From positions 99,818 through 163,817 of the forward strand of contig CBFHPW010000002.1 in NCBI GenBank assembly GCA_965657945.1: a DNA stretch of 64,000 bases. The letters run 5' to 3'. Below are positions 202-49,869 of this stretch, one piece after another. This DNA comes from Flavobacteriales bacterium. Its GTDB lineage: Bacteria; Bacteroidota; Bacteroidia; Flavobacteriales_D; CAJJDF01. Each line of letters opens with the position of its first letter. The stretch's first letter is position 1. Position numbers and translations under genes: made by a program. Below the pieces are notes generated by a model that ran no database searches, had not been told where the DNA came from, and saw only the letters and a program-made list of their open reading frames with translations.

Positions 202-252
202 CATTCACAATTTTATTTCATAAATTACGTTAATCTCCAAATCCCTGACATT

Positions 253-978: not shown

Positions 979-984
979 ACGAAA

Positions 985-2214: not shown

Positions 2215-2220
2215 TCACAA

Positions 2221-2253
2221 AAAAAACCTCAAAGATTTCTCCTTGAGGTTTCA
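2221..2253. terminator. Hairpin between convergent folC and ompA-like genes (bidirectional terminator candidate)
   Basis: AACCTCAA (2225-2232) pairs with TTGAGGTT (2243-2250). An A-run lies 5' and T-rich sequence lies 3'. Confidence 0.55.
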
Positions 2254-2278
2254 TTCTAATTAGAGTTTATTTTTTCAG

Positions 2279-3448: not shown

Positions 3449-3601
3449 AATATTTCTTTTAATAGGTTTAAAAATAAGAATCTATTTTCAATTACCAATG
3501 CTTGTTGAGTGATAAAATCAAATATCGTTAAGATTAGTTACAACTTCAATGCCAGAAAAAAAAATCTCTAGTCATTAACGGTTTCTTAACAAGAACAGTC
3601 G

Positions 3602-7208: not shown

Positions 7209-8594
7209 TTAAAGGGAGTTAATAAAGTCCGACAAGCAAAATAAGACATCGCGACTTATGGTGGTTTCAATTTTTTGATATTCGTCTGGCATGCCCGTAT
7301 TAGAAGGTTGAAATAAATGATTTAACTCTCCAAAAGTAGCAAAGCGTAAAGTTCTTCGCGAAAATAATCTTGAACGAGATTTACCCAAGGCCGATCTAAT
7401 TTCCTTCATATTGGGATCGGTAGGAACTTGAACGTCTTTTCCTCCGCCAACTGCCAACACAGAACATCTCACTTTTGAAAGGTAATTCTCCGGAACCACA
7501 GACACAAAACTTTTGTACCAAGCCCCATCAAGTAGGTCGAACTGAGCAGAGACAAGGGTCTTTTCCTCGGTCTCAGACAATCCTTTTTGCTCAGAAAAAT
7601 CCATTAACACTTTTTTCAATTTCAAGCTTTTTTGATCTCCTTCGTAAGCAATTACCACACTGTCAATGGACGAAAACAGTTGTTTTTGCTCAAGAATTAG
7701 TTCGTCAGAAAGCCCTTGATCTTTATAAATTGCTTCTCTCTGAAGATGCATCATTTCGGTGATGGGCATACCTGGCGCTCCCATCAAAATGACAAAATCA
7801 ATTAGTTTCTTGTTATTGCTTGCAAACTTAGGCGCAAGAATTCCACCTTCGCTGTGACCCAATATACCCAGTTTATTTACTTCTTTTCGTTTGCCAATCA
7901 CCTCGATTACAGATTCTAAATCGGTATACAAATCCGACAAATCCGCCCCTCTATATTCTCCAGTAGATTTGCCCACTCCTCTTTCATCATACCGAAATGA
8001 CCCAATCCCTTGTTTGGCCAAATGATCCGCTATTACCGCAAACAACTTATGCCCAAAAATTTCTGAATCACGATTTTGAGGACCACTTCCCGAAACCAAA
8101 ACAACCACAGGAAATGCTCCTGATTGGCTGGGCAAAGTTAGGGTTCCGCTCAAAGTCAAAGAATCCTTTTTGTTCTTTATCAAGATTTCTTCGGTGTAGT
8201 AATCTATCTCGCCAATTGGTGTTTGAGGTCTTTTGAGTTTTTCTTGAACAACCTCACCAAGCGACATAGCTAAATCCAACTCAAACCCATTTTGTTTGAA
8301 CACGCCAAGCAAAGAATCTTTGCTATGAATTCCCTCGTAGGCTATTCCTAATTTGGACAAACCAAAAAAGAAGGACGAATCAGAAATGTAAACGGAATCA
8401 CACCAAAAGTCAAGCGAAGGATTAGATTCAGCTTGCAAAGAGACTTTATATGTCGAATTGTTTCGTTCTACCTTGAAAAAAACTTTTTGAGTCGTTCCCA
8501 TGGCCGATAAATCTCCTTTCCATGTACCTTCTGTGATTTGAGAAACCGACCAATAAGAGGAAAAAAGAAGAAGAAAAAGAATAAATTGTTTCAT
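7209..8594 (-). CDS. Secreted alpha/beta-hydrolase (serine hydrolase)
   Basis: Signal peptide MKQFILFLLLFSSYWSVSQ and nucleophile elbow GHSEGG. The N-terminal extra domain is of unknown function. Confidence 0.65.
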   Translation of the reverse strand: MKQFILFLLLFSSYWSVSQITEGTWKGDLSAMGTTQKVFFKVERNNSTYKVSLQAESNPSLDFWCDSVYISDSSFFFGLSKLGIAYEGIHSKDSLLGVFKQNGFELDLAMSLGEVVQEKLKRPQTPIGEIDYYTEEILIKNKKDSLTLSGTLTLPSQSGAFPVVVLVSGSGPQNRDSEIFGHKLFAVIADHLAKQGIGSFRYDERGVGKSTGEYRGADLSDLYTDLESVIEVIGKRKEVNKLGILGHSEGGILAPKFASNNKKLIDFVILMGAPGMPITEMMHLQREAIYKDQGLSDELILEQKQLFSSIDSVVIAYEGDQKSLKLKKVLMDFSEQKGLSETEEKTLVSAQFDLLDGAWYKSFVSVVPENYLSKVRCSVLAVGGGKDVQVPTDPNMKEIRSALGKSRSRLFSRRTLRFATFGELNHLFQPSNTGMPDEYQKIETTISRDVLFCLSDFINSL

Positions 8595-8826: not shown

Positions 8827-11238
8827 ATGTTTCGAACCCTTGTTTTTTTTATTTTTTTCCAAGTTTGGACTCTTCTGGTTTCAGGGCAAACTGTAACAGT
8901 TACGAACTATTCCACTTCGGAACCCATAGAGAACGTAAGAGTAACCAACAACGACCTCACGATCGAATTATTTACGGACAAGAAAGGAGAAGTTTCCCTC
9001 AATGATTTCAACCTAAAGGAATTGATTTATTTCTCTCACCCTTCTTTTGAATCCGTTACCTTGAGCTTTGCACAAGTAATAGAAAGCAACTACCAGGTAA
9101 TTCTTTTTGACGAAATATTACTGCCACAAATTGACATAAAACCTCCTCGAGAAAACACTCACGAAGATTTTTCTTCAGTAAGAATCAACAAAATCTCTCT
9201 TCAGGATATTCGCCTCACCATTCCTCAAACCTCGGCAGATATGCTCCAAAAAAACACAAATATTCTTGTACAAAAAAGCCAGTCTGGCGGTGGAAGTCCA
9301 ATAATTAGAGGGTTTGAAGCAAACAAAATCTTGCTGGTGGTAGATGGAGTGCGCATGAACAACGCCATATACAGAAGCGGTCATTTGCAAAACGCCATTA
9401 CGGTGGATGCAAATATCTTACAAAATGCGGATGTGTTTTATGGACCAGGATCGGTTATTTATGGGAGTGACGCATTGGGAGGTGTTATTCATTTTCATAC
9501 GAAAAACCCAGAATTTTCGGTTGATTCTACTCTATTTACTTCGGCAAATGCCATGGCCAGAATTGGTTCGGCCAACGGAGAACAAACCTACCACGCAGAT
9601 GTGAATATTGGAGGTCAAAAACTCGCTTCCCTTACTTCGGTTACGTTCAGCTCCTTTGAGGATTTCACAATGGGAAAAAATAGAAATCACGGCTATGAAG
9701 ATTTCGGAAAAATATACCAATTCACACAAGTTACCGAGATGGGAGATAAAGTAGTGACGAATACAGATAAAAATACAATGCCTCGGACTGGGTATTCTCA
9801 ATTGGACTTATTACAAAAACTAAATTACAAGGTAAAGAAAGGGGTAAATCTTGGGCTCAACTTGCAATATTCAACTTCGAGCGACATCAATCGATTTGAT
9901 AAACTGAATGAATACAGGAATGGAGCGCTTCGTTTTTCTGAGTGGTCCTACGGACCTCAACACAGATTGCTTACCTCGTTAAAACTGGAGAACAAAAACG
10001 AATCGAGATTTACTGACTACTATACAGTTATTGGTGCGTTTCAAAAAATAGACGAAGACAGAATATCAAGAAGTTTTGGCTCTACGAGTTTGTTTACAGA
10101 AATGGAAGATGTTTATGTGTATAGCATAAATGCTGACTTTCTCAAAAAACTCTCTACCAACGAAGTGTTGTATTATGGAGCGGAGGTTACCCACAACAAT
10201 GTAGTTTCTACGGCCACAGAAAAAAACCTATTAACCCAAGAATCGAACCCTACGCAAACAAGGTATCCTGGAGGAGAAAACAGAATTACTTCACTAGCTC
10301 TGTACACTACCATTGACAAAAAGATAACCAACAAGTTAATCGTTAATCTGGGTGCGCGTTACAGTCACTTTGTGAATTTTTCTGAGTTATCAGATTCCAC
10401 TTTTACAGAATTCCCATTTCGTACTATCGATTTTAATACGGGAGCTTTGTCCGGTAGTTTTAGTGTTAAATACGAGGAAAAAAGCGGTCTCAGGATTGAA
10501 TTGATTGGATCTTCTGGATTTAGAGCACCTAATGTAGATGACTACGGAAAGGTATTCGAAAGAAACGGAAACCTTGTTGTGCCAAACAACTATCTGAAAC
10601 CAGAATTTGTGTACACGGGAGAACTTAATCTTTCAAAAAAATGGGTGAAAAATGAACGAGAATACCTTCAAGTGAAAGCAGCAGGTTTCTTCACCTCATT
10701 AACCAATGCACTGGTGTTGACCAATTACACATTGAATGGAAACGACTCGGTTACATACAGAGGTGATCGCGTGAACTTAGTTTCAAATCAAAATGTGAAT
10801 GCTGCCATGATTTACGGAGGTTCTTTTGACGTAAGACTCGCTCTTACATCCTACCTTAAATTAATTGGAGCAATCAACTACACAGTAGGAAGAAATTTAA
10901 CTGACGACACTCCGTTGTCGCACATTCCTCCCGTTTTTGGAAGAGCTTCTCTTCACTACACCAGTAAGAAGTTACAAATTCAGCTCGCTACACAATTCAA
11001 TGGAACCAAAAGAATGGAGGATTACGGAACAGACGGAACAGATAATCCTGAGGAAGCTACCGTAGATGGAACGCCAGCTTGGAGTACATTTAATTTATAT
11101 GCCACTTACAAAATAACACCTAAATTTAGCGTTCAGGCAGGAATAGAAAACATCTTAGACACTCACTACAAACAGTTTGCATCAGGTGTAAGCGCATTGG
11201 GTAGAAATTTCACAATTGCCCTGAGAGGAAACTTCTAA
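8827..11238 (+). CDS. TonB-dependent outer-membrane receptor
   Basis: Signal peptide, carboxypeptidase-regulatory-like N-domain (VTVTNYSTSEPIENVRV), plug region (GGGSPIIRGFEANKILLVVDGVRMNNA), and a C-terminal barrel ending in F. Confidence 0.85.
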   Translation: MFRTLVFFIFFQVWTLLVSGQTVTVTNYSTSEPIENVRVTNNDLTIELFTDKKGEVSLNDFNLKELIYFSHPSFESVTLSFAQVIESNYQVILFDEILLPQIDIKPPRENTHEDFSSVRINKISLQDIRLTIPQTSADMLQKNTNILVQKSQSGGGSPIIRGFEANKILLVVDGVRMNNAIYRSGHLQNAITVDANILQNADVFYGPGSVIYGSDALGGVIHFHTKNPEFSVDSTLFTSANAMARIGSANGEQTYHADVNIGGQKLASLTSVTFSSFEDFTMGKNRNHGYEDFGKIYQFTQVTEMGDKVVTNTDKNTMPRTGYSQLDLLQKLNYKVKKGVNLGLNLQYSTSSDINRFDKLNEYRNGALRFSEWSYGPQHRLLTSLKLENKNESRFTDYYTVIGAFQKIDEDRISRSFGSTSLFTEMEDVYVYSINADFLKKLSTNEVLYYGAEVTHNNVVSTATEKNLLTQESNPTQTRYPGGENRITSLALYTTIDKKITNKLIVNLGARYSHFVNFSELSDSTFTEFPFRTIDFNTGALSGSFSVKYEEKSGLRIELIGSSGFRAPNVDDYGKVFERNGNLVVPNNYLKPEFVYTGELNLSKKWVKNEREYLQVKAAGFFTSLTNALVLTNYTLNGNDSVTYRGDRVNLVSNQNVNAAMIYGGSFDVRLALTSYLKLIGAINYTVGRNLTDDTPLSHIPPVFGRASLHYTSKKLQIQLATQFNGTKRMEDYGTDGTDNPEEATVDGTPAWSTFNLYATYKITPKFSVQAGIENILDTHYKQFASGVSALGRNFTIALRGNF

Positions 11239-39622: not shown

Positions 39623-40576
39623 TTACTGGATTTGATAAAGATTCTTATCTGTTAAAGAATGGAGAAAGTTTACTAAATCTTCCTTTTCAGAAGTCGATAA
39701 CATAAGTGGTTCTATCATCACACTGTCTAAATTAATTGGAGCAGGAACAAACATATACAAGTTGTTGTAAAAATCAATTACTTCCTCCAACGTTTCTAAA
39801 CTGCCATCATGCATGTATGGAGCTGTCAACGCAACATTTCTTAATCCAGGAACTTTGAACTTCCCTAAATCATTTGAATCTCCAGTTATATCAAATCTGC
39901 CTTTATCTGTGTATTCTTTGCCATCGTACAGACCTATGTTTCTGAATTCATCACCTGTAAAGTCTGGACCAAAATGGCAATCAAAACACTTTGCCTTTTC
40001 TAAAAAAAGTTCTCGTCCTCTTTGTTGAGATTTGGACAAAGCTAAAGGCTCTTCGTCATTCATCCACAAATCATGTGGAGCACTTCCATCACTTTCAAGA
40101 CTACGTTGAAAACTAGCCAAAGCACTTGTCAAATTACTTTTTGATGGTAAGTCCCTATAAATTTTATCAAAAAGCGCCACATAAAGCTCCGAATTCAAAA
40201 GTCGATTTACAGCTGAATCAATTGACAAATTCATTTCAACTGGATTTTCTATTGGACCTATCGCTTGCTCTTCCAATGAGGAAGCTCTACCATCATAAAA
40301 AAAATGAGAACGACTTGCCATATTCATAACAGACGGAGTATTTCTTGTTCCAAGGCTGTCATTTACTCCAAAAGATAAACTTCTATTATCCGCAAATGCG
40401 AATTCCGGCTTGTGACAACTTCCACAAGAAATTGATTTATCGTGCGACAATATTGGATCAAAAAATAGTTTCTCTCCTAACTCAGACTCACTAACTATCT
40501 TTTTAATTTCAACTTGATTAGAATCAAAGCAACCCGAAACACCTATAATGAACAAGGAAAAAATAATTATTCTCAT
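39623..40576 (-). CDS. Di-haem cytochrome c peroxidase family protein
   Basis: Two CXXCH motifs (CGSCH, CFDCH), PGLRNVALTAPYMHDG, and a lipoprotein-like signal (GVSGC). Confidence 0.85.
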   Translation of the reverse strand: MRIIIFSLFIIGVSGCFDSNQVEIKKIVSESELGEKLFFDPILSHDKSISCGSCHKPEFAFADNRSLSFGVNDSLGTRNTPSVMNMASRSHFFYDGRASSLEEQAIGPIENPVEMNLSIDSAVNRLLNSELYVALFDKIYRDLPSKSNLTSALASFQRSLESDGSAPHDLWMNDEEPLALSKSQQRGRELFLEKAKCFDCHFGPDFTGDEFRNIGLYDGKEYTDKGRFDITGDSNDLGKFKVPGLRNVALTAPYMHDGSLETLEEVIDFYNNLYMFVPAPINLDSVMIEPLMLSTSEKEDLVNFLHSLTDKNLYQIQ

Positions 40577-40722: not shown

Positions 40723-43700
40723 TTACTTATTAATCTGTACGTAACCGTTGTATACTTTTTTGTCTACTGTGTTGGTTCCTAAATCGATTACATAGAAGTA
40801 AGTTCCGTTTGGTAGCATTCCATTGCCCATCGCTTTTCTTGCCATGTCATCTACGTTAGACTTCCCGATAAACTCATTCGTGTAGCCTCTTTGTTCAAAT
40901 ACTAAGGTTCCGTATCGGTTAAAGATTTTTACTACGTTCTGTGGGTAGTTTCCTAACTCTGCTAAATCCCAGAAGTCATTCTTCCCATCTCCGTTTGGTG
41001 AGATAAATTGTGGGATATCTAATTCCTGCTCACAGTTCACTATCACATCAAACGTACATGAGTCTGCATTCATCGAGGCATCAGTCGTTACGATAGTTAT
41101 CGTTACTCTTCCGTTTACTGCTGACACTTCGGTTCCTGCTGCTGGGAACTGCTCTGTTGTGGTTCCATTAACTATACAGTTGTCTGTGTTTGAACTCTCC
41201 CATGCGAAGTCTTCTACCACATAAGTACAAGTTGTGTTTCTCACCGTTCTGTTCTTATCCGCTGGACAGAATACTACTGGCGCTACATTGTCTTCTACTG
41301 TTACCGTAGCTACACAACTCGATACGTTTCCATACAAGTCAGTTACAGTAAGGGTGACTTGATTTCTTCCTACGTTGCTGCAGTCAAAATCTGTCTTGTC
41401 TACATTCACACTCGATACTGCACAGTTGTCAAAGCTTCCACCATCTACATCACTCGCTACTATCGTAGCTTGTCCATTGGCATCTAAGCTAATCGTAATG
41501 TTCTGACAGACTGCTGTTGGTGCTAAGTTGTCTACCACTGTTACTGTGGCTGTACAACTTGCTGTGTTTCCACTTGCATCTACTCCAGTGAGTGTCACCG
41601 TGTTCACTCCTACTTGAGTACAGTTGAATGTACTGTTCGATAGGCTCAACGTGATTCCACAGTTGTCGCTGCTTCCGTTGTCTACATCTATCGTAGTGAT
41701 GGTTGCGTTTCCTGTTGCATCTAATGCGATGGTTGTTGATTTACACAACACTACTGGTGCTAACGTATCTAGGATAGTCAACGTGGTTGTACACGTGGAT
41801 CTGTTTCCACTTGCGTCTACTCCAGTAAGTGTTACCGTGGTTGTTCCTATATCGGCACAAGTGAATGTGCTTCTGGATACACTCATCGTTACTATGCCAC
41901 AGTTGTCACTGCTTCCTCCATCTACTTCACTTGCTGTTAATGTTGCCATGCCCATTGCGTCCAAGTAAATCGTTGCGGGTGCACAACTCATGATTGGAGC
42001 TAATGTATCCAGTACTGTGATTGCACTTGTACAAGTTGATGTGTTTCCTGATGCATCCGTTACGGTAAGCATTGCCATACTCGTTCCTAAGTCAGTACAA
42101 GTATAGGTGGACTGAGAGACACTCATCGTGAATGTACAGTTGTCACTGCTTCCGTCATTGATCATGGCAGCTGTTAGGCTTGCTGTTCCTGATGCGTTCA
42201 AGTACAACGTATCTGCTTTGCAAATAGCTACTGGAGCTATCGTATCCAATACGGTTACTACGGCTACACATGTTGAGGTGTTTCCTGCTACATCGGTTGC
42301 CGTTAACGTTACGTTGTTTGCTCCGGCATCTGAACAAGTAAACAGGGTATCCGTGATCGACAACGTTACTCCACAGATGTCACTGCTTCCATTGTCAATA
42401 TCACTTGCTACTAATCTTGCCACTCCATTAGAGTCTAAGTAAATCGTGGCTGACTTACACAAGGCTATCGGATTGATGGCATCTACTACGGTTACTACTG
42501 CCGTACAAGTTGAAGTGTTTCCACTTGCGTCTGTTCCGGTAAGGGTGACCATGTTTGTTCCTAAGTCGGCACAAGTAAAGGTGGTTTGTGACAAGCTCAG
42601 TGTGAAGTCACAGTTATCCGTACTTCCATTGTCCACATCCATAGTAGTGATTGTCGCTACTCCTAAAGCATCCAAGTTTACTGTTACTGGTTGACAGTTC
42701 ATCACTGGTGATAATGTGTCTTGAATATCAAATGCAACTAATCCTACGGTTGTGTTTCCAGAAAAATCAGTAGCAGTTATCACCATAGTATCAATTCCTA
42801 TATCTGAACAATACACATAATTTTTAGAAATAGTTATTGATAAACCATCACAGTTATCAAATGCAGGTCCAGGAAGACCAGATGTTCCTAAAGCAAAAGA
42901 ATAAGGTAGTATTGGTGCTTTTCCTGTTGAATCTAAATAAATATCAAAAGCACCGCCTGATAAATAAGGAGGCATTACTGGTGGTGTGTTATCTACTACA
43001 GTTACTGTTGCTGTACAAGTATCTGAGTTTCCGTTTCCATCGGTTCCTATCAACGTTACCGTATTTGTACCTAGATCGGCACAAGTAAAGGCAGTGTTAG
43101 ATAAACTCAATGTCATTCCACAATTGTCACTGCTTCCATTGTCAACGTCTGCAATCGTTAATGTTGCATTTCCTGAACTGTCTAAGTAAATAGTTGCTGG
43201 CTTACAGATTACTACCGGTGCTGTCGCATCTACAACAGTTACTACTGCCGTACACGAATCTACATTTCCGCTTCCATCTATTCCTACTAACGTTACCGTG
43301 TTCGTTCCAATGTTCGTACAATCAAAGGTTGTGTTTGACAAACTCATTGTCATTCCACAATTATCCGAACTTCCATTGTTTACATCACTTGTTGTTATAA
43401 TTGCGTTTCCTGATGCATCCAAGTTTACTGTTACTGATTGACAAACCATGGTCGGTGCCAAAGTATCCAGTACTGTTACAGTCGTTGTACAGGTACTTGT
43501 TAACCCTTGTGCATCTCTCACGGTTAACGTTACCGTATTCGCTCCAATTGATGAACAGTTGAACGTAGTTTGAGAAAGACTCAAGCTTACTGAACAGTTG
43601 TCGCTACTACTGTTATCGATGTCGCTTGCAGCTAAGGTAGCCACTCCTGAAGCGTTCAGGTAGATCGTATCTGGTCGACAACTTGCTACTGGTGGCGTTA

Positions 43701-46700
43701 AATCAATTACCGTAACAGTTGTTACACATGAATCAACGTTTCCGTTGGCATCTGTTACCGTTAAGGTCACTGAGTTGACTCCTAAATCAGCGCAAGTAAA
43801 TGCGGTTTGAGAAGCACTTAGTGTAATGTTGTTACAGTTGTCTGAAGATCCATTGTTGATGTCAGAAGCTACAATTCTTGCGTTTCCTGTGGCATCTAAA
43901 TATGCAGTGGTAGGTTGACAAACTACTATTGGATTCACTGAATCTACTACCAACACCGTTGCGTCTGCTGAACTTACGTTCCCAGAGTTATCTGTAACGG
44001 TTACCGTTACTGTATTCATTCCTATGTTCGCACAAGAGAATGCTGAATCACTCAACGCTATCGTTGCAATTCCACAGTTGTCTGTACTTCCGTTTTCAAT
44101 GATACTCAAGCTTGTGGATGCCGTCCCCATTGAATTTAAGTAAACTGTATCATTCGCTAAGTTTACTATCGGGGATATCGTATCTAACACCACTACTCTT
44201 GATGTGGCTGAAGAGGTATTTCCACTTCCGTCTCTTATCGTGGTGGTTACATTGATAAATCCTGTCGTTCCATTTACATCTGAACATAACGCTGAATCAA
44301 CATTCATCCATACTGAATCTACCGTACAGTTGTCCCAAGTTGACGTCACAACAAAACTGGTGTCAAAATCAAATTGACCATTGGCTGCTAAGTAAACCAT
44401 TGTGTCCGTTACGGTTATTGCTGGTGCAATTGTATCTAACACGGTTACATTCGCCACACAAGAATCCATGTTTCCAGAGTTGTCTCTTATGTAGAGAGGT
44501 ATTGGACTAGATTGACCACAACTGAACAATAACGTATCAGAAAGTGAAATTGGTGTAAATCTATAGATAGTTCCATTTGGAATTATTCCACTCATATAAG
44601 CAAGACCGTCACCATCATCCAAAAATTCTACTGTTGGAGACAAAGGATTGCCTGAAAGAATTTGAGATTTACCCTTGTAGTCATAACCATCATAATCAAA
44701 CAAAGACGAAATACCAACTCCCCAAGGACCATTTTCTCCGTCATACGAGGCAATAAAATCATTTAAGACCGTTGGTCCATAATGAAATTCTATTTTGTTG
44801 CCATTTTCATAAATCCACAATTGGAGATTTACATAATCTTCATATACATCGTCATCATCTGTATCTCCATGATAAAAACCAGCATTCTTCCACTCTATTT
44901 TTGTAATACGATTTCCTGCTACCCCCGTTGTCTTATATGATATGGGTGATAGAGATAATCCATTTTCACTTCCACGATCAATCAAATCTACACCTAACGG
45001 CACTATTACAGGAGTTATTTGATTACTAGTTAACCCTAACTCTGCACCGTATCCAGTAATGATTAATGAATCTAAGGTATTACCATAAAAATTAAAATTA
45101 AATCCTAATGGGATTTCTAATTCAGGGTCATCCCATGTGTTTCCATTATTTAGAGAAATTGCGCTAGTAAGATTGGAATAAACACCGCTTGACTGAGAGA
45201 AGAAATAGGTAGTATCTATTGCAGTTGTAAGAAAAGAACCTAAATTAGTCCATACTGAATCCACACCACAATTGTCCGCATATCCATCTTGTAAACTTAT
45301 TACAGGAACTCTAGCAACACCCAATGAGTCAATGTAAAAGGTGGTGTCCACACATAAAATAGTTGGATTGATGGTATCGAGTACAGTAATTGTTGCACTT
45401 GCGCTGTCCATGTTTCCTGATAAATCCACTGCGTACACAGTGACGTTTACTGAATCATTGGCACACGAAGCTGAAGTTGCACTCATCCAAACTGAATCAA
45501 GGGTACAGTTTTCTGTGACGCTAGTAAGAACAGCACTTGTATCAAAGGCTACATTTCCAGAAGCATCCAAATACAACGTGGTATCGTGGGCTACTAAGAT
45601 TGGTAACAAGGTATCCAATACATAGACTCTTGCCATTGCTGAATCGATGTTTCCACTTCCATCTTGGATGTAAGCCGTTACCTCAATTGAATCGTTGGCG
45701 CATGTGGCACTCGTGTGACTCAACCACACTGAATCTACTGTACAGTTGTCCCATGTAGAAGTAACAATGTCCGAAGTATCGAAACTTACAGTTCCTGCTG
45801 CTGATACATACACCGTTGCATTTTGAACTGCAATATTTGGTACAATTGAATCTCTCACTGTAACATTCGCTACACAAGAATCGATGTTTCCTGAATTATC
45901 TCTTACGTAAACCGTTACTTGTTCGTTGGAGTTTGAGCAATTGAAAGTTGGATTTGGGTAATTAATTAAAAAATAAGCATCATAAGTTCTAGAGGATAAA
46001 TAATTATCCGGATTTCCATTTGTATATCTAAAAAATGCCGAAATTGAATTAGATATTCTCGCCATTACCTTTATTCTGCTTCCTCCAGAATTTAATGGTT
46101 TTATAACCCAACTATATCTACCTGAAGTCAAATTTAAATTTGAGAATGGAAATACCTTATTACCTATTGAACTAATAGCTATTTCCGTTGAATCGATAGC
46201 ATTTAATCCAGAATCTTGATAAATTACCATTCTAAAGGATCCAGAAGATACACTTGTAAAATTAACTTCAACAGAATTAATTTTTATATACGAGGTCAAT
46301 TCAAATGTTTGACCAGCAAATTGATTTGAATTAATATCAAAGTAGCTAAATCCAAAAATGGAAGGCTGTCCAAAACTCGAAGTTGACAATAATGGAGACC
46401 ATACCGAATCCACTCCACAGTTATCAGCAAAACCATTCTGAATAAAGGAGGTGTCCAAATAAGCTAATCCATTTGAATCTAAATAGACAGTTGTGTCCAC
46501 ACAAGCTATCGTTGGATTGATGGTATCCAACACGGTAACCGTTGCGGTTGCGCTGTCCATGTTTCCTGATAAATCCACTGCATACACAGTTATGTTTACT
46601 GAATCATTGGCACAAGAAGCTGTAGTAGCACTCATCCAAACTGAATCAATTGTACAGTTTTCTGTGACACTCGTAAGCACAGCACTTGTATCAAATACAA

Positions 46701-49700
46701 TGTTTCCTGTTGCATCCAAATACAACGTGGTATCATGAGTTAGTATGATTGGAGCAAACGTATCAATTAAATACACAAAGGCTATTGCAGAATCAATGTT
46801 TCCACTTCCATCTTGGATGTAAGCCGTTACCTCAATTGAATCGTTGGCACATGTGGCACTCGTGTGACTCAACCATACTGAATCAATCGTACAGTTGTCC
46901 CAAGTTGATGTCACAATGTCAGACGTATCGAAACTTACAGTTCCTGCTGCTGATACATACACCGTTGCATTTTGAACTGCAATGTTTGGAACGATGGTAT
47001 CACTTACAGTCACGTTCGCTATGCACGAATCGATGTTTCCAGAGTTATCTCTTACGTAAACGGTTACTTGTTCGTTTGAGTTAGAACAGATATAATCTTT
47101 AGATTGTACTTCAAGTACATTAGATTCAAAACCATAAGCTAGCAAAGTCGTATTGCTTGGAGTTAAGGTCAAAGGAGTTGACCAGGCGGATGAACTATAC
47201 CATCTTAATCCGCTCGTGTTCTGACTGGAAGAATAGGATAATTCTCTTACTTGTAAATCAGCCATAGATGTCGGTTCAATCATGAATGCATACCTTCCAG
47301 ATGACAACTGAATTCCTGTTAATGGAATTGATACAAGGCCTGTATTAGTCACTGTATATGCCGTTGAAACTAATGCAGTTGACAAGGTAGAATCTGAATA
47401 AATAGTCAAGTTAATTGGTGCAGAACCTCCATTTAATCGTTCTACATGAAACTTAAATACAGTCAATTCTGAGTTGTAATCAACCACGAATGTATTTCCT
47501 ACGAATGATGTATCCCCATTTGAAGGGTTATAATAAATATTTCGAGCAAAGGTTGCAGTATTTGTAGAATCATAAGAGATCGTTGCATTCGCAGGATAAC
47601 GCAAAGCTCCTGACATCCAAAGACTCTCCACCCCGCAATTATCGGTAAATCCATTTTGTACAAACGATGTATCAATAGATACCGAACCGTTTGAATCTAA
47701 ATATACAGTTGTATCAACACAAGTTATCGTTGGATTGATTGTATCGAGAACAGTAATTGTTGCCGATGCACTGTCTGTGTTTCCTGATAAATCCACTGCA
47801 TACACTGTTACGTTTACTGAATCATTGGCACAGGTTGCTGAAGTAGCACTCATCCAAACTGAGTCAAGGGTACAGTTTTCTGTGACACTCTTAAGCACAG
47901 CGCTTGTATCAAACGCAATGTTTCCAGTTGCATCTACATACAACGAGGTATCGTGAGCTACTAAGGTTGGAGCAAACGTATCAATTAAATACACAACAGC
48001 TATGGCAGAATCAATGTTTCCACCTCTATCTTGGATGTAGGCTGTTACGTTAATTGAATCGTTGGCGCATGTAGCACTCGTGTGACTTAACCACACTGAA
48101 TCAATTGTACAATTATCCCATGTAGAAGTCACAATGTCAGACGTATCTATACTTACAGTTCCTGCTGCTGATACATACACCGTTGTGTCAACACAAGTTA
48201 TCATTGGCAAGATCGTATCAGTATTGGAATTATTGAGTGTCAAATTCAATGTCACAATACTATCACAGCCAACTCCATTAGTTAATGTATCCGTTGCTGT
48301 ATTATTGGAACTCGTATAAGTTACTCCATTTATCCAAGTGTAACTGTCACAGGCTGTTTGAATATCTGTTCCTGTAGTGGACGCTAAGATCGTTAAGTCT
48401 AAAGTTACAATTGAATCAAATCCTGCAGCATTGGTTAAGGTGAATGTTGCCGTGTCATTATCTGAGGTATATGTATTTCCATCAATCCATGTATATGAAT
48501 CACATGCCGTTTGAATATCAGTTGAATAAGTAGCGGGTGTTGTTAATGCATTGAACTCAAACGCTCCGATATCCTTAGCTCCATTATTAAAAAAACCACG
48601 TTGATCGTTACCTGGAACAGTTACTGAACCATTTGATCCAGTAAATCCTGCATCAATGGCTACACTTCCCGCAGAAAGCGCTAAAGTCAATACACCGCTG
48701 GTAGCACCGTTAAGCGCTAAGCTGCTCGATAAATTCAAGTTCGCCTGAGTTCCCGTTATTGTGCCAGTACCGGAAGGTGTGATAGAAGATCCTGCATAGG
48801 TTTCAATGATATTAGAACCATTGTCAATAATATTCGATGCCCAAGAATCTGTGTTGAAGTCGATATCTGCTGGTCCACCATTTACCGTGTTTTGAGCAAT
48901 AATGTTGTTCTTTAAATATAATTTTCCCGGACCTTGTTGCATGTAAACGACATAAACACCACCTCCTTTCCCAGATGCGGAGGATACAGAGTTGTAAGCA
49001 ATAGTATTGTTAGTTAAGACTGTTTGGTTGTACCAGGATAGAATTGCACCTCCACTTGTTTCGGAGGAATTAGCGGTAAATGTTGAATTTGTTACATGCA
49101 CTGTATTAGAACGGAAAAAACCCATACCTCCAGCCACATTGTGGTAACCGACACCAAACTCGTTACCATCGGTAGATGAATTATTGTTGAAAGTACATCG
49201 GTTGATTGTCACATAATTCCCTTGAAGTGAATAAAGACCTCCAGCACCATATGCCTTACCAGTGGCGCTGTTATTACGAATGATGCAATCATTTAAGCGC
49301 AAATCTGGGTGAAAGGAAGTGTTTCCGCGTAAGTAAATACCACCAGCGAAATAGTAATTAGTCGTAACACCGTTATCAATTTCATTGTTTTCAATAATAC
49401 AATTATTGAGCGTAACAATATTATTTCGGGTTTGATCCAAGACCGTGATCCCCCCGGCATTTTTTTCCTGATTGGTATTGAATCCGTTGCGGATCGTCAA
49501 ATGTTCTAGGGTAATATCATGATTTATAGTAAAAACACATCTATCGGCTGTTCCAGGAGTTGGAGCGGATTGAATAAATGTTAGACCTGCACCATCACCA
49601 ACAATTGTTAGAGCTTTCAACAGAGAGAACCCCGTGATTGCAGCATCACCTGTTTCTTGGGCGTCTGTCCAATCAAACGTACCGGAAAGTGCAACCGTAT

Positions 49701-49869
49701 CTCCACTAGAAGCTGCGTTATAAGCAGCTGTGAAGGATCTCTTCGCGGTCGAAGGTGATAATCCGTTATTAGAATCGTTCCCTGTAGAACTGTTCGCGTA
49801 ATAAGTTGTTTGGGCTTGACTCAAAACCGAAATAAATCCAACAAGAAGAGATAAAGATAAATGTTTCAT
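40723..49869 (-). CDS. Giant (3048 aa) cell-surface protein: beta-helix + split-domain super-repeats + HYR/Ig-like array + T9SS type-B C-terminal domain
   Basis: Signal peptide MKHLSLSLLVGFISVLSQAQ. Parallel-beta-helix turns (NNCIIENN, NDCIIRNN, NRCTFNNN, LTNNTIAYN) at nt ~48545-49810. Two CDSYTW modules at 48245-48525. About 23 domains of the form ...DNC...D.SGN..SC...VTV.D..P. The C-terminus IPQFISPNGDGKNDFWD...IFNRYGTLVF...NGTYFYVI (nt 40726-41030) matches the gliding-motility-associated / type-B sorting domain. Confidence 0.9.
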   Translation of the reverse strand: MKHLSLSLLVGFISVLSQAQTTYYANSSTGNDSNNGLSPSTAKRSFTAAYNAASSGDTVALSGTFDWTDAQETGDAAITGFSLLKALTIVGDGAGLTFIQSAPTPGTADRCVFTINHDITLEHLTIRNGFNTNQEKNAGGITVLDQTRNNIVTLNNCIIENNEIDNGVTTNYYFAGGIYLRGNTSFHPDLRLNDCIIRNNSATGKAYGAGGLYSLQGNYVTINRCTFNNNSSTDGNEFGVGYHNVAGGMGFFRSNTVHVTNSTFTANSSETSGGAILSWYNQTVLTNNTIAYNSVSSASGKGGGVYVVYMQQGPGKLYLKNNIIAQNTVNGGPADIDFNTDSWASNIIDNGSNIIETYAGSSITPSGTGTITGTQANLNLSSSLALNGATSGVLTLALSAGSVAIDAGFTGSNGSVTVPGNDQRGFFNNGAKDIGAFEFNALTTPATYSTDIQTACDSYTWIDGNTYTSDNDTATFTLTNAAGFDSIVTLDLTILASTTGTDIQTACDSYTWINGVTYTSSNNTATDTLTNGVGCDSIVTLNLTLNNSNTDTILPMITCVDTTVYVSAAGTVSIDTSDIVTSTWDNCTIDSVWLSHTSATCANDSINVTAYIQDRGGNIDSAIAVVYLIDTFAPTLVAHDTSLYVDATGNIAFDTSAVLKSVTENCTLDSVWMSATSATCANDSVNVTVYAVDLSGNTDSASATITVLDTINPTITCVDTTVYLDSNGSVSIDTSFVQNGFTDNCGVESLWMSGALRYPANATISYDSTNTATFARNIYYNPSNGDTSFVGNTFVVDYNSELTVFKFHVERLNGGSAPINLTIYSDSTLSTALVSTAYTVTNTGLVSIPLTGIQLSSGRYAFMIEPTSMADLQVRELSYSSSQNTSGLRWYSSSAWSTPLTLTPSNTTLLAYGFESNVLEVQSKDYICSNSNEQVTVYVRDNSGNIDSCIANVTVSDTIVPNIAVQNATVYVSAAGTVSFDTSDIVTSTWDNCTIDSVWLSHTSATCANDSIEVTAYIQDGSGNIDSAIAFVYLIDTFAPIILTHDTTLYLDATGNIVFDTSAVLTSVTENCTIDSVWMSATTASCANDSVNITVYAVDLSGNMDSATATVTVLDTINPTIACVDTTVYLDSNGLAYLDTSFIQNGFADNCGVDSVWSPLLSTSSFGQPSIFGFSYFDINSNQFAGQTFELTSYIKINSVEVNFTSVSSGSFRMVIYQDSGLNAIDSTEIAISSIGNKVFPFSNLNLTSGRYSWVIKPLNSGGSRIKVMARISNSISAFFRYTNGNPDNYLSSRTYDAYFLINYPNPTFNCSNSNEQVTVYVRDNSGNIDSCVANVTVRDSIVPNIAVQNATVYVSAAGTVSFDTSDIVTSTWDNCTVDSVWLSHTSATCANDSIEVTAYIQDGSGNIDSAMARVYVLDTLLPILVAHDTTLYLDASGNVAFDTSAVLTSVTENCTLDSVWMSATSASCANDSVNVTVYAVDLSGNMDSASATITVLDTINPTILCVDTTFYIDSLGVARVPVISLQDGYADNCGVDSVWTNLGSFLTTAIDTTYFFSQSSGVYSNLTSAISLNNGNTWDDPELEIPLGFNFNFYGNTLDSLIITGYGAELGLTSNQITPVIVPLGVDLIDRGSENGLSLSPISYKTTGVAGNRITKIEWKNAGFYHGDTDDDDVYEDYVNLQLWIYENGNKIEFHYGPTVLNDFIASYDGENGPWGVGISSLFDYDGYDYKGKSQILSGNPLSPTVEFLDDGDGLAYMSGIIPNGTIYRFTPISLSDTLLFSCGQSSPIPLYIRDNSGNMDSCVANVTVLDTIAPAITVTDTMVYLAANGQFDFDTSFVVTSTWDNCTVDSVWMNVDSALCSDVNGTTGFINVTTTIRDGSGNTSSATSRVVVLDTISPIVNLANDTVYLNSMGTASTSLSIIENGSTDNCGIATIALSDSAFSCANIGMNTVTVTVTDNSGNVSSADATVLVVDSVNPIVVCQPTTAYLDATGNARIVASDINNGSSDNCNNITLSASQTAFTCADLGVNSVTLTVTDANGNVDSCVTTVTVIDLTPPVASCRPDTIYLNASGVATLAASDIDNSSSDNCSVSLSLSQTTFNCSSIGANTVTLTVRDAQGLTSTCTTTVTVLDTLAPTMVCQSVTVNLDASGNAIITTSDVNNGSSDNCGMTMSLSNTTFDCTNIGTNTVTLVGIDGSGNVDSCTAVVTVVDATAPVVICKPATIYLDSSGNATLTIADVDNGSSDNCGMTLSLSNTAFTCADLGTNTVTLIGTDGNGNSDTCTATVTVVDNTPPVMPPYLSGGAFDIYLDSTGKAPILPYSFALGTSGLPGPAFDNCDGLSITISKNYVYCSDIGIDTMVITATDFSGNTTVGLVAFDIQDTLSPVMNCQPVTVNLDALGVATITTMDVDNGSTDNCDFTLSLSQTTFTCADLGTNMVTLTGTDASGNTSTCTAVVTVVDAINPIALCKSATIYLDSNGVARLVASDIDNGSSDICGVTLSITDTLFTCSDAGANNVTLTATDVAGNTSTCVAVVTVLDTIAPVAICKADTLYLNASGTASLTAAMINDGSSDNCTFTMSVSQSTYTCTDLGTSMAMLTVTDASGNTSTCTSAITVLDTLAPIMSCAPATIYLDAMGMATLTASEVDGGSSDNCGIVTMSVSRSTFTCADIGTTTVTLTGVDASGNRSTCTTTLTILDTLAPVVLCKSTTIALDATGNATITTIDVDNGSSDNCGITLSLSNSTFNCTQVGVNTVTLTGVDASGNTASCTATVTVVDNLAPTAVCQNITISLDANGQATIVASDVDGGSFDNCAVSSVNVDKTDFDCSNVGRNQVTLTVTDLYGNVSSCVATVTVEDNVAPVVFCPADKNRTVRNTTCTYVVEDFAWESSNTDNCIVNGTTTEQFPAAGTEVSAVNGRVTITIVTTDASMNADSCTFDVIVNCEQELDIPQFISPNGDGKNDFWDLAELGNYPQNVVKIFNRYGTLVFEQRGYTNEFIGKSNVDDMARKAMGNGMLPNGTYFYVIDLGTNTVDKKVYNGYVQINK
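41040..44421 (-). repeat. Array of 14 tandem ~79-aa (~240-nt) HYR/Ig-like domain repeats inside the giant gene
   Basis: Units follow P-x-x-x-C-x-P-x-T-x-Y-L-D-x-x-G-N-A...DNGSSDNC...F-x-C-x-x-x-G-x-N-T-V-T-L-T-x-x-D-x-S-G-N-x-x-x-C-T-x-x-V-T-V-x-D. The last unit (CPADKNRTV...DSCTFDVIVNC) is closest to a canonical HYR domain. Confidence 0.85.
44422..48213 (-). repeat. Three super-repeats (about 406, 383 and 480 aa), each two intact Ig/HYR-like domains plus a third one split by an inserted domain
   Basis: The marker ACAGTTCCTGCTGCTGATACATACAC recurs at 48155, 46937 and 45788, giving spacings of 1218 and 1149 nt. Long near-identical DNA blocks are shared between units. Inserts lie at about 47100-47615, 45950-46400 and 44535-45250. 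Confidence 0.85.

What the first reader, a model, noticed from the sequence alone, without database searches (positions are those of the whole stretch)
44422..48213. Nested domain insertion: the third Ig/HYR-like domain of each super-repeat is split by a different inserted domain
In each super-repeat the third domain starts normally (TITCVDTTVYLDSNGSVSIDTSFVQNGFTDNCGVESLW). It resumes only 150-240 aa later with its missing C-terminal half (..CSNSNEQVTVYVRDNSGNIDSCIANVTVSDTIVP).

The intervening sequences differ between units.
- Insert 1 (~47100-47615) and insert 2 (~45950-46400) are distant relatives of each other (LSSGRYAFMIEP versus LTSGRYSWVIKP).
- Insert 3 (~44535-45250, ~240 aa) is unrelated to them. 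It contains WDDPELEIPLGFNFNFYGNTLDSLIITGYG and an acidic DTDDDDVYEDY stretch.

The flanking scaffold DNA is near-identical between units while the inserts are not. That suggests a conserved display scaffold presenting three different, possibly ligand-binding, modules.
Basis: seen in the sequence. Interest (0 to 1): 0.62.

Follow-up and report, generated by a model that had tools for sequence, protein, structure and literature searches.

The report
Split-domain adhesin with swappable inserted modules
A giant secreted surface fibre of a marine Flavobacteriales bacterium has three of its 23 small stalk domains each interrupted by a complete foreign domain, and close relatives have exchanged or lost these inserts, much like the "split domain plus ligand-binding domain" design known from a different class of bacterial adhesins.

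Summary
One 3,048-aa ORF (40723-49869, minus strand) encodes a signal peptide, a beta-helix-like head, 23 HYR-like ~79-aa domains and a T9SS type B sorting domain.

- **Split domains.** D3, D6 and D9 are each split at the same loop by 176, 153 and 241 aa.
- **Evidence for one domain.** An HMM of the 18 unsplit sibling domains matches each split domain as two complementary halves. A related metagenomic protein carries the same domain subtype unsplit (72% identity, one 146-aa gap).
- **Inserts are autonomous domains.** They are not degenerate Ig repeats.
  - Insert 3 is the whole passenger domain of ~330-aa T9SS type A proteins (E to 1e-56). It also matches the N-terminal domain of a RemA-type gliding adhesin (E 1e-16).
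  - Inserts 1 and 2 are remote relatives of small T9SS cargo domains and phage tail-fibre tips.
- **Variation in a 96%-identical orthologue.** It lacks one whole super-repeat. Its insert 2 is only 61% identical, with saturated synonymous divergence and sharp breakpoints inside the half-domains. This indicates cassette replacement.

"Near-identical scaffold DNA" is overstated: identity is 80-88%, and 59-80% for the halves. 3D reassembly and ligand binding remain inferred. I class this as a new variant of a known kind, the split-domain adhesins.

The parts
40723..49869 (-). Whole gene: a 3,048-aa secreted fibrillar surface protein. Its parts are a signal peptide, a beta-helix-like head, 2 x ~47-aa CDSYTW repeats, 23 HYR-like domains and a T9SS type B C-terminal sorting domain.
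   Evidence: Single ORF. Pfam HYR scores 86.5 bits over 8 stretches and CHU_C 84.2 bits. TIGR04131 scores 45 bits against a cutoff of 35, and choice_anchor_Q 32.6 bits.
48205..49869 (-). Signal peptide, N-terminal beta-helix-like region (aa 1-445) and two CDSYTW repeats (aa 446-555). This is the presumed distal end of the fibre.
   Evidence: Translation. The choice-of-anchor Q hit covers aa 392-440. The signal peptide and beta-helix are read from the sequence pattern and are inferred.
47731..48204 (-). Super-repeat 1: unsplit HYR-like domains D1 and D2 (aa 556-713).
   Evidence: Domain parsing. DNA identity to D4/D7 and D5/D8 is 80-88%.
47617..47730 (-). D3 N-terminal half (aa 714-751).
   Evidence: HYR HMM positions 2-44, E 8e-17.
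47089..47616 (-). Insert 1 (aa 752-927, 176 aa), a beta-rich domain distantly related to insert 2.
   Evidence: BLASTP against insert 2 gives E 1e-8. Independent profiles of small T9SS-A proteins and of tail-fibre C-termini hit it at E 6e-8. It has no Pfam or NCBIfam family. It is absent from the orthologue L001.
46984..47088 (-). D3 C-terminal half (aa 928-962).
   Evidence: HYR HMM positions 37-80, E 6e-15.
46513..46983 (-). Super-repeat 2: unsplit domains D4 and D5 (aa 963-1119).
46399..46512 (-). D6 N-terminal half (aa 1120-1157).
   Evidence: HYR HMM positions 2-38, E 6e-15. AF2 pLDDT is 63-86.
45940..46398 (-). Insert 2 (aa 1158-1310, 153 aa), a small beta-sandwich. This module is hypervariable between orthologues.
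   Evidence: The AF2 core has pLDDT 77-87. Foldseek finds LecB-type lectins and TNF-like folds (prob 0.96-0.99, TM 0.43-0.46, E ~0.03) and phage tail or tail-fibre proteins. It is 61% identical to the orthologue with pS 0.67.
45835..45939 (-). D6 C-terminal half (aa 1311-1345).
   Evidence: HYR HMM positions 41-80, E 2e-15. AF2 pLDDT is 71-85.
45364..45834 (-). Super-repeat 3: unsplit domains D7 and D8 (aa 1346-1502).
45250..45363 (-). D9 N-terminal half (aa 1503-1540).
   Evidence: HYR HMM N-terminal stretch, E 2e-11.
44527..45249 (-). Insert 3 (aa 1541-1781, 241 aa), a complete all-beta domain of the family shared by small T9SS type A cargo proteins and the RemA-type N-terminal domain.
   Evidence: There are 122 homologues, the best at E 8e-56 and 48% identity, nearly all built as signal peptide + this domain + PF18962. 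The family profile hits PDB chain 8gl6_D 'RemA' residues 24-226 at E 1e-16. AF2 pLDDT is 94-98. It has no Pfam family.
44422..44526 (-). D9 C-terminal half (aa 1782-1816).
   Evidence: HYR HMM positions 36-80, E 5e-14.
41038..44421 (-). Stalk: 14 further unsplit HYR-like domains, D10-D23 (aa 1817-2944).
40723..41037 (-). T9SS type B C-terminal sorting domain (aa 2945-3048) and the stop codon.
   Evidence: CHU_C covers aa 2951-3046 and TIGR04131 covers aa 2951-3033.
45895..46452 (-). Block replaced relative to the orthologue L001 (aa ~1140-1325). It comprises insert 2 plus ~18 aa and ~15 aa of the flanking half-domains.
   Evidence: There are about 12 differences per 30 nt inside the block and 0 per 30 nt immediately outside. 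dS is ~1.65 inside against 0.07-0.35 in neighbouring parts.
46777..47994 (-). 406-aa unit (aa 626-1031: end of D1, D2, D3 with insert 1, most of D4) that is absent from the orthologue. Its end points lie in the homologous D1 and D4 repeats.
   Evidence: Global alignment with the L001 ORF shows one 406-aa gap.

Best explanation
**What it is.** The region encodes the outer part of a fibrillar surface protein exported by the type IX secretion system. The stalk is a chain of HYR-like Ig-fold domains. In every third domain of a triplicated three-domain super-repeat, one loop has received a complete, independently folding beta-rich domain. That loop lies between the strand ending DNCGV(D/E)S(V/L)W and the strand beginning (F/I)xC.

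**How it most likely works.** The interrupted domain still folds as one Ig-like unit. It acts as a 'split domain' that holds the inserted module out sideways from the fibre axis, so the fibre carries three different binding heads. Two are small jelly-roll-like modules. One is a RemA-N-terminal-type module.

**How the modules vary.** The conserved half-domains also serve as homology arms. Recombination within them replaces the insert as a cassette. Unequal recombination between super-repeats adds or removes whole units.

**Shown versus inferred.**
- Shown: the architecture, the independence of the insert families, the empty site in relatives, and the cassette replacement and unit indel between orthologues.
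- Inferred: refolding of the halves in 3D, lateral projection, and ligand binding or adhesion.
For: **Split of one domain.**
- The split domains match the HMM of unsplit domains as complementary halves.
- All 18 unsplit domains align to D6 and D3 with one long gap.
- Insert-deleted D3, D6 and D9 each align to Pfam HYR positions ~8-81 as one stretch.
- Unsplit copies of the same subtype in L005/L006 and L003 are 59-75% identical to the joined halves. D6 is only 45-48% identical to its own neighbouring domains.

**Fold integrity.**
- All four conserved Cys are kept in D3, D6 and D9.
- Cys4 (N-half) and Cys68 (C-half) co-vary across 56 domains (Fisher p 2e-6).
- The near-invariant Cys32 and Cys46 bracket the insertion point.
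- AF2 with an HYR alignment gives the halves pLDDT 63-86.

**Inserts are autonomous domains.**
- Insert 3.
- Inserts 1 and 2.

**Binding role (indirect evidence only).**
- Relatives of inserts 1 and 2 form the C-terminal tips of proteins whose N-terminal parts hit PHROG tail-fibre families.
- Foldseek gives LecB-type lectins, TNF-like folds and phage tail fibres.
- The insert 3 family sits at the N-terminal tip of a RemA-type gliding adhesin.

**Exchange between orthologues.**
- 406-aa unit indel.
- Insert 2 has saturated dS with dN/dS 0.23 and sharp breakpoints.

**Generality.** A fourth, unrelated ~250-aa insert sits at a different loop of HYR-like domains in L002, L003 and L005/L006.

**Known analogue.** Split domains projecting ligand-binding domains are described in RTX adhesins (PMC12077191).
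Against: - No coordinates could be inspected, so contact between the halves and the orientation of the inserts are not verified.
- The D6 model is only moderate (mean pLDDT 66, pTM 0.50).
- In the D9 model the halves were unstructured, because its alignment carried no HYR information.
- Fold matches for insert 2 are weak by E-value (~0.03). Insert 3 has no significant PDB fold match (best E 0.2).
- No ligand, motif or experiment supports binding.
- Individual split domains are below Pfam's HYR threshold, at 13.7-15.3 bits against 21.7.
- No PorP/SprF-like partner gene lies next to the gene.
- The exchange evidence rests on one full orthologue plus fragments.
Confidence: 0.7

Rival explanations
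1. The inserted domains are real nested domains, but they are catalytic or otherwise non-adhesive. For example, they could be polysaccharide-degrading or signalling modules tethered to the cell surface by the fibre.
For: Neither insert family has a known function. The non-significant Foldseek list for insert 3 includes glycoside hydrolases and tailspikes alongside lectins. The insert 3 family has strongly conserved acidic and aromatic motifs (W77, D78, D79, D126, D129, E157, E186), which could be catalytic or metal- or sugar-binding. Many small T9SS type A cargos are enzymes (general knowledge).
Against: No hydrolase or lyase family is matched at any threshold. Relatives of inserts 1 and 2 sit at tail-fibre tips, and their fold neighbours are lectins and TNF-like binding domains. 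Insert 3 relatives sit at the tip of a gliding adhesin.
Confidence: 0.15
2. The divergence of insert 2 between orthologues reflects rapid in-situ diversification, by positive selection or targeted hypermutation such as a diversity-generating retroelement, rather than cassette replacement.
For: Insert 2 is the only large block with 39% amino-acid divergence in a protein that is otherwise 93-100% identical.
Against: Synonymous sites are saturated (pS 0.67) and dN/dS is 0.23, so the block is old rather than fast-evolving. The breakpoints are abrupt. No second (template) copy of insert 2 exists in the window, and no inverted repeats flank it. The start of the L002 insert is a mosaic of the two alleles.
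Confidence: 0.05
3. The apparent inserts are an assembly chimera or a decaying pseudogene region rather than a functional architecture.
For: Repetitive genes are prone to misassembly. The source is unknown and the relatives found are metagenome-assembled genomes.
Against: One uninterrupted 9.1-kb ORF runs from an intact signal peptide to an intact sorting domain. An independent MAG has the same nested insert 2-type and insert 3 arrangement in a syntenic gene, with dN/dS well below 1 in most parts. Further contigs show nested inserts of another type.
Confidence: 0.02
4. The inserts are merely degenerate copies of the same Ig-like repeat, so there is no true domain insertion.
For: All parts are beta-rich and rich in Ser, Thr and Asn.
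Against: The HYR HMM gives no significant match inside any insert (best E 0.027 and 0.3). The inserts belong to other families that exist on their own. Their lengths of 153-241 aa are not multiples of the 79-aa unit.
Confidence: 0.01

Closest known systems
Split domains projecting ligand-binding domains in RTX (type I secreted) fibrillar adhesins, e.g. Aeromonas hydrophila AhLap, Vibrio cholerae FrhA, Marinomonas MpIBP (PMC12077191, PMC10865825; Graham et al. 2024, Proteins 92:933, as cited in PMC12077191)
   Same: Both are long chains of Ig-like extender domains in which a few domains are interrupted by a complete different domain. Both carry several unrelated inserted modules in the distal part of one fibre. 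The inserted modules include small beta-sandwich, lectin-like folds. A Foldseek hit, though weak, was to 9q5u 'Aeromonas salmonicida putative carbohydrate binding module and split domain' (E 9e-3).
   Different: The secretion route and anchoring differ: T9SS type B C-terminal domain here, against T1SS signal plus N-terminal retention domain. No RTX repeats are present. The host domain is HYR-like with conserved cysteines, not a Ca-dependent BIg domain. The insert families are different. Here the split domains recur as part of a tandem super-repeat. Cassette replacement between orthologues is documented here, and I found no report of it for RTX adhesins in the papers read. No paper in the searchable library links split domains with type IX secretion.
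Flavobacterium johnsoniae gliding adhesins RemA/RemZ and SprB (T9SS-secreted mobile surface adhesins; PMC10994853; Shrivastava et al. 2012, as cited there)
   Same: These are Bacteroidota T9SS cargos and large repetitive surface proteins. The insert 3 family matches the N-terminal domain (residues 24-226) of PDB chain 8gl6_D, deposited as RemA, at E 1e-16. Having a type B CTD like SprB rests on my own knowledge.
   Different: In the RemA-type protein the domain is terminal, not nested. Only the CTD was resolved in 8GL6, so no structure of that domain exists. No SUEL-type lectin domain is detected here. No role in gliding is shown, and no adjacent PorP/SprF-like gene is present.
Small T9SS type A cargo proteins (signal peptide + one passenger domain + Por_Secre_tail PF18962)
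   Same: Their passenger domains are the closest relatives of insert 3 (up to 48% identity, covering the domain end to end). They are remote relatives of inserts 1 and 2.
   Different: They are free-standing 250-350-aa proteins. None of the 122 insert 3 homologues retrieved is nested in a larger protein. Their function is unknown.
Phage tail-fibre receptor-binding tips and their modular exchange
   Same: Inserts 1 and 2 match a profile of C-terminal domains of proteins whose N-terminal parts hit PHROG tail-fibre families. BFVD fold hits are tail or tail-fibre proteins. A binding module replaced by recombination at conserved flanks resembles tail-fibre tip swapping, which is general knowledge.
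   Different: Here the module is internal to a bacterial adhesin domain, not the C-terminal tip of a trimeric fibre. The homology is remote (19-30 bits).

Membership tests
Split-domain / projecting-domain adhesin architecture (defined in RTX adhesins) | An Ig-like extender domain is interrupted by a complete domain of another fold, and the chain then returns to finish the extender domain. | tested here: met
   Complementary HMM halves; single-gap alignment; empty-site homologues; autonomous insert families.
Split-domain / projecting-domain adhesin architecture (defined in RTX adhesins) | The two parts of the split domain pack into one fold, with the insert's N- and C-termini adjacent and the insert pointing away from the fibre axis. 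| tested here: inconclusive
   AF2 gives the halves pLDDT 63-86 and strands in both, and the Cys pairs spanning the halves are conserved.
Split-domain / projecting-domain adhesin architecture (defined in RTX adhesins) | RTX nonapeptide beta-roll, T1SS C-terminal signal and N-terminal retention domain. | tested here: not met
   Pfam and NCBIfam find only HYR, CHU_C/TIGR04131 and choice-of-anchor Q. It works like an RTX split-domain adhesin but is not an RTX adhesin.
Split-domain / projecting-domain adhesin architecture (defined in RTX adhesins) | The inserted domains bind ligands (glycans, peptides, surfaces). | not testable with these tools
   Only indirect evidence: relatives at tail-fibre tips and lectin/TNF-like fold neighbours, and the tip domain of a RemA-type adhesin.
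Pfam HYR (PF02494) | Score at or above the gathering threshold of 21.7 bits. | tested here: met
   The whole protein scores 86.5 bits over 8 stretches, the best covering model positions 2-81. Individually, insert-deleted D3, D6 and D9 score 13.7-15.3 bits, the natural empty-site domain 14.4, D12 17.7 and D21 24.8. The split domains are therefore HYR-like siblings, each sub-threshold on its own.
T9SS type B cargo (TIGR04131 / CHU_C C-terminal domain) | C-terminal sorting domain above the curated cutoffs, plus an N-terminal signal peptide. | tested here: met
   TIGR04131 scores 45 bits against a cutoff of 35, and CHU_C 84.2 against 27, at aa 2951-3046. The signal-peptide-like N-terminus MKHLSLSLLVGFISVLSQAQ is read by eye.
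T9SS type B cargo (TIGR04131 / CHU_C C-terminal domain) | A cognate PorP/SprF-like gene immediately downstream. This is often but not always present (own knowledge). | tested here: not met
   The downstream gene 39623-40576 (-) is a di-haem cytochrome c peroxidase.
Insert 3: small-T9SS-A-cargo / RemA-type N-terminal domain family (not in Pfam) | End-to-end sequence homology to the family. | tested here: met
   phmmer E down to 8e-56, aligning insert positions ~10-237 to the whole passenger domain. The family profile hits 8gl6_D residues 24-226 at E 1e-16.
   No Pfam hit for insert 3 at E <= 10. None of the 69 family members matches NIDO at E <= 1.
LecB/PA-IIL-type or TNF-like jelly-roll (inserts 1 and 2) | Significant structural superposition on the fold. 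| tested here: inconclusive
   Foldseek prob 0.96-0.99 but E ~0.03, TM 0.43-0.46 and rmsd ~6 A, on a model whose core has pLDDT ~80. No sequence match to PDB.
Diversity-generating retroelement target | A template repeat homologous to the variable region, and adenine-specific changes. | tested here: not met
   No second copy of insert 2 in the window. Divergence includes saturated synonymous change.

The most novel reading that the evidence does not exclude
HYR-like split domains in Flavobacteriales T9SS fibres may form a general, evolvable display system. The conserved half-domains would act as recombination arms at two or more defined loops. Through them, binding modules would be swapped in and out as cassettes between strains. 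The modules would come from a shared pool that also supplies free-standing T9SS cargo proteins, RemA-type adhesin tips and phage tail-fibre tips. This would retarget what the cell sticks to, analogous to tail-fibre host-range switching.
Probability: 0.3. Interest if true: 0.7.

Novelty: new variant of a known kind. Interest (0 to 1): 0.55.

Why it matters
Split domains are currently used as a practical marker for finding ligand-binding heads in RTX adhesins of Proteobacteria. This finding shows the same design in an unrelated secretion system (T9SS), phylum (Bacteroidota) and host fold (HYR-like), which suggests convergent evolution.

It also gives a simple rule for locating candidate binding modules in the many unannotated giant proteins of marine Flavobacteriia: an HYR domain whose halves are separated.

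Two uncharacterised domain families are pointed out as probable binding modules. One is shared with the tip of a RemA-type gliding adhesin.

Finally, the region gives a concrete case of cassette replacement and unit gain or loss between near-identical genomes. That would explain how particle- or algae-attached bacteria diversify their attachment specificity.

Tried and rejected
**One AlphaFold job carrying both HYR and insert information.** MAFFT could not co-align the 79-aa HYR domains and the insert homologues to a split domain. This failed in every mode and with every trick tried: whole domains, half domains, three-domain rows and core-trimmed homologues. I therefore ran two separate jobs.
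- In the D9 job (insert 3 homologues only), the HYR halves came out unstructured. That job says nothing about reassembly.

**Model coordinates.** They are not exposed in /data, so contacts between the halves could not be measured.

**Homologue searches for inserts 1 and 2.**
- The word-index search with inserts 1 + 2 found nothing.
- The exhaustive search found only 8 weak hits. Two of these (P0121, P0122) looked like spurious repeat matches and were dropped.
- The profile A3 used contained its own targets, so I re-tested with profiles that excluded the inserts.

**Ideas rejected.**
- NIDO, rejected.
- Diversity-generating retroelement, rejected.
- Invertible or shufflon-type switching, rejected because there are no inverted repeats of 40 nt or more.

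**Uninformative checks.**
- The genomic context of free-standing homologues told little.
- The Shrivastava 2012 RemA paper is not held.

Full report
**The gene**

The finding lies inside one uninterrupted ORF, window 40723-49869 on the minus strand, 3,048 aa.
- Pfam finds HYR (86.5 bits, 8 stretches) and the CHU_C type IX secretion signal domain (84.2 bits, aa 2951-3046).
- NCBIfam finds the T9SS type B sorting domain TIGR04131 (45 bits, cutoff 35) and a choice-of-anchor Q motif at aa 392-440.

Parsing on the recurrent ...D(T/S)xxP linker gives this layout:
- a signal-peptide-like N-terminus;
- a ~445-aa beta-helix-like head;
- two ~47-aa CDSYTW repeats;
- 23 HYR-like domains of ~79 aa (D1-D23);
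- the sorting domain.

Neighbouring genes are housekeeping genes. The downstream gene is a di-haem cytochrome c peroxidase, not a PorP/SprF-type partner.

**Checking the observation**

D3 (aa 714-962), D6 (aa 1120-1345) and D9 (aa 1503-1816) start like normal domains. They break off after DNCGV(E/D)S(L/V)W and resume at (I/F/S)C...V(Y/I)(V/I)RDNSGN(I/M)DSC. The intervening pieces are 176, 153 and 241 aa.

Several tests show the two flanks are halves of one domain:
- An HMM built only from the 18 unsplit sibling domains matches D6 as model positions 2-38 (E 6e-15) and 41-80 (E 2e-15).
- The same HMM matches D3 as 2-44 and 37-80, and D9 with an N-terminal stretch starting at position 2 and a C-terminal stretch 36-80. 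Nothing inside the inserts is significant.
- MAFFT aligns all 18 unsplit domains to D6 and D3 with a single long gap. G15, C32, C192, D205, G208, D221 and P225 of D6 are invariant.
- If the insert is removed in silico, D3, D6 and D9 each align to Pfam HYR as one stretch over model positions ~8-81 (13.7-15.3 bits).
- That score is below Pfam's 21.7-bit cutoff but equals that of natural unsplit siblings. Intact D6 matches only through its last 24 residues.

The super-repeat is visible in DNA as three copies with spacings of 1149 and 1218 nt.

- D1/D4/D7 are 80-88% identical.
- D2/D5/D8 are about 86% identical.
- The half-domains are only 59-80% identical.
- The inserts are at random level.

**An empty site in relatives**

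Metagenome contigs L005/L006, and also L003, encode related giant proteins that carry the same domain subtype unsplit. An example is TITCMDTTIYLDSMGMATIDTSFVQNGFADNCGVDSVW-MGNTT-FNCSSNNDSVTVYVRDNSGNMDSC....
- The joined halves of D6 are 72% identical to it, with one 146-aa gap exactly at the insert.
- D6 is only 45-48% identical to its own neighbours D5, D1 or D12.

This is the strongest evidence that the inserts are additions to an otherwise ordinary domain.

**What the inserts are**

None of the three has a Pfam or NCBIfam family.

*Insert 3*
- It has 122 homologues in the 5.8-billion-protein collection, the best at E 8e-56 and 48% identity.
- Almost all are 300-350-aa proteins built as signal peptide + this domain + Por_Secre_tail (PF18962). 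The alignment covers the insert from about residue 10 to 237, so the insert is the entire passenger domain. None of these homologues is nested in a larger protein.
- A profile of the family matches residues 24-226 of PDB chain 8gl6_D, deposited as RemA, at E 1e-16.
[quoted passage not shown] No structure of this domain therefore exists.
- AlphaFold2 with 68 homologues gives an all-beta domain at pLDDT 94-98.
- Foldseek finds no PDB relative better than E 0.2.
- The NIDO idea gets no support.

*Inserts 1 and 2*
- They are related to each other at 25% identity over 102 aa, E 1e-8.
- They are nearly orphan. The word-index search found nothing. The exhaustive search of 1.84 billion representatives found 8 weak hits.
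- Iterating with these hits recovered two groups. Group A is ~255-aa T9SS type A proteins with one passenger domain, for example from Aequorivita lipolytica. Group B is the C-terminal domains of proteins whose N-terminal parts hit PHROG tail-fibre families.
- The iterated profile contained its own targets. I therefore built separate profiles of group A and group B without the inserts.
- Both profiles hit insert 1, insert 2 and the orthologue's insert 2 at E 1e-6 to 1e-11 for a single comparison. Insert 3 and D12, used as controls, score 0.004-0.1.
- The AlphaFold2 model of D6 has an insert core at pLDDT 77-87.
- Its Foldseek neighbours in PDB are LecB/PA-IIL-type fucose lectins, the Pgp3 C-terminal domain and TNF-family ligands. 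These have prob 0.96-0.99 and TM 0.43-0.46, but E is only ~0.03.
- There is also a weak hit to 9q5u, 'Aeromonas salmonicida putative carbohydrate binding module and split domain'.
- In BFVD the neighbours are tail, tail-fibre and collagen-repeat proteins.

**Does the split domain refold?**

This could be tested only indirectly.
- With an alignment that carries HYR information (A4), both halves of D6 are predicted with pLDDT 63-86 and with beta strands. The linkers to the insert are below 50 and pTM is 0.50.
- With no HYR information, the halves of D9 are unstructured.
- Coordinates are not exposed, so contacts could not be measured.

Sequence gives supporting evidence from 56 near-full-length HYR-like domains in the window and related loci:
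- Cys4 and Cys68 are present or absent together (26 both, 20 neither, 5 + 5 single). Fisher p is 2e-6 overall and 1e-4 for the window alone.
- Cys32 and Cys46 are nearly invariant.
- D3, D6 and D9 keep all four cysteines.
- Cys4 lies in the N-half and Cys68 in the C-half. Cys32 and Cys46 lie on either side of the insertion point.

If these are disulfides, one staples the two halves together and the other closes the base of the loop that carries the insert. That reading is an inference.

**Comparison with orthologues**

A scan of one genome per species found L001, a Flavobacteriales MAG (AGTU_22_bin_22), with a syntenic 2,657-aa orthologue. Most parts are 93-100% identical in protein (D20 89%; insert 2 and D14 are treated below), and two differences are large.
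- **A missing unit.** The orthologue lacks exactly 406 aa (window aa 626-1031). This is one super-repeat period containing insert 1. Its end points lie in the homologous D1 and D4 repeats, as expected for unequal recombination.
- **A replaced insert.** Insert 2 is only 61% identical.
  - Nei-Gojobori counts give pS 0.67 (dS ~1.65) and dN/dS 0.23 in insert 2. In most other parts dS is 0.02-0.14, rising to 0.22-0.37 in the split-domain halves D6n, D6c and D9n and in D8, which lies further on.
  - In 30-nt windows the differences jump from 0 to about 12 at aa ~1140 and fall back to 0 at aa ~1325. These points lie ~18 and ~15 aa inside the half-domains.
  - This is the signature of an old, divergent allele replacing the cassette by recombination in the conserved arms. 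It is not recent positive selection or hypermutation. No template copy exists in the window.
- Insert 3 is 96% identical between the two genomes.
- L002, another MAG with the same upstream neighbour gene, has a different N-terminal head. Its insert 2-like start is a mosaic of the two alleles.

**A second insertion site**

L002, L003 and L005/L006 carry a fourth, unrelated ~250-aa insert with no Pfam family. It sits in a different loop of an HYR-like domain, between ...YDTSxLL and DNC. The HYR HMM matches those domains as positions 5-24/27 plus 18/29-80. In this group of Flavobacteriales proteins the HYR-like domain therefore hosts at least three unrelated insert families at two loops.

**Most likely mechanism**

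The protein is exported by the T9SS and probably stays attached through its type B C-terminal domain, with the N-terminal half pointing outward. The HYR-like chain is the stalk. The three split domains, at 23-60% of the length from the distal end, each hold a different module off the axis, giving a multi-specific adhesin. Specificity is diversified by cassette replacement and by gain or loss of whole super-repeats.
- Shown: the architecture and the exchange events.
- Inferred: surface location, projection and binding.
- Main rival: the modules are enzymes or have another non-adhesive role. This cannot be excluded because neither family has a known function.

**Comparison with what is known**

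The closest known system is the 'split domain' of RTX adhesins. There, Ig-like domains are interrupted by carbohydrate-binding, peptide-binding, RTX-like or vWFA domains that project from the fibre. Split domains are used as a criterion for finding ligand-binding domains (PMC12077191; PMC10865825).
- The present protein works like these but is not one of them. It has no RTX repeats or T1SS signal, and it uses a different host fold, insert families and secretion system.
- No paper in the searchable library links split domains to type IX secretion, and searches on HYR domains in Bacteroidetes adhesins gave nothing relevant.

**Verdict**

This is a new variant of a known kind. Its interest is moderate to good for three reasons: convergence with RTX split domains, two uncharacterised module families flagged as probable binding heads, and clear evidence of cassette exchange between near-identical genomes.

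Noticed in passing
L002 ~9150-10130; L003 ~7560-8400; L005 aa ~240-495 and ~960-1205 of the ORF at 60-5870: A fourth, unrelated ~250-aa insert (AYNP..GVYY.., WWN..NQLEG motifs; no Pfam family) splits HYR-like domains at a different loop, between YDTSxLL and DNC. It occurs in related giant proteins, twice in L005/L006.
   Followed up: partly
L005 ORF aa 709-787 and 1418-1497; L003 ORF aa ~197-274: Unsplit ('empty-site') copies of the same HYR subtype as D3/D6/D9. They are 59-75% identical to the joined halves.
   Followed up: yes
window 43216-43452 (D14) and 41755-41994 (D20): Two unsplit stalk domains are also unusually divergent from the orthologue (77% and 89% aa identity; D14 dS 0.64). This suggests further patchy recombination or gene conversion among the HYR repeats.
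   Followed up: partly
window 42706-42978 (D16) and 44170-44421 (D10): D16 is 91 aa long, with about 11 extra residues in the same loop that carries the fourth insert type in relatives. D10 has 5 extra residues after Cys46. The loops that host inserts are also length-variable in unsplit domains.
   Followed up: no
window 48205-48534: Two ~47-aa repeats (TDIQTACDSYTWI(D/N)G.TYTS.N.TAT.TLTN..G.DSIVTL.LT) lie between the beta-helix head and the first HYR domain. No family was detected.
   Followed up: no
L002 7613-10813 versus window 48535-49869: At a locus that shares the 595-aa upstream neighbour gene in another MAG, the giant protein has a completely different N-terminal head in place of the beta-helix-like head. 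The head, by eye, includes a Calx-beta-like segment (SVSFTIVDKSATQGLDYL). The whole distal end of the fibre is therefore mosaic between relatives.
   Followed up: no
window 39623-40576 (-): The gene immediately downstream of this type B T9SS cargo is a di-haem cytochrome c peroxidase, not the PorP/SprF-like partner often found next to type B cargos. In L001 the downstream neighbours differ from those in the window.
   Followed up: partly
L008/L009 2945-6774: The free-standing relative of inserts 1 and 2 in Aequorivita lipolytica (P0151) lies directly downstream of a TonB-dependent receptor gene. This may hint at a role in substrate capture.
   Followed up: no
HYR-like domains throughout (e.g. 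D12, aa 1981-2060): The N- and C-halves of the HYR-like domain resemble each other (C..T.Y.D..GN... versus C....T.T..D..GN..SC). MAFFT repeatedly aligned C-halves onto N-halves. This may be internal pseudo-symmetry of the domain.
   Followed up: no
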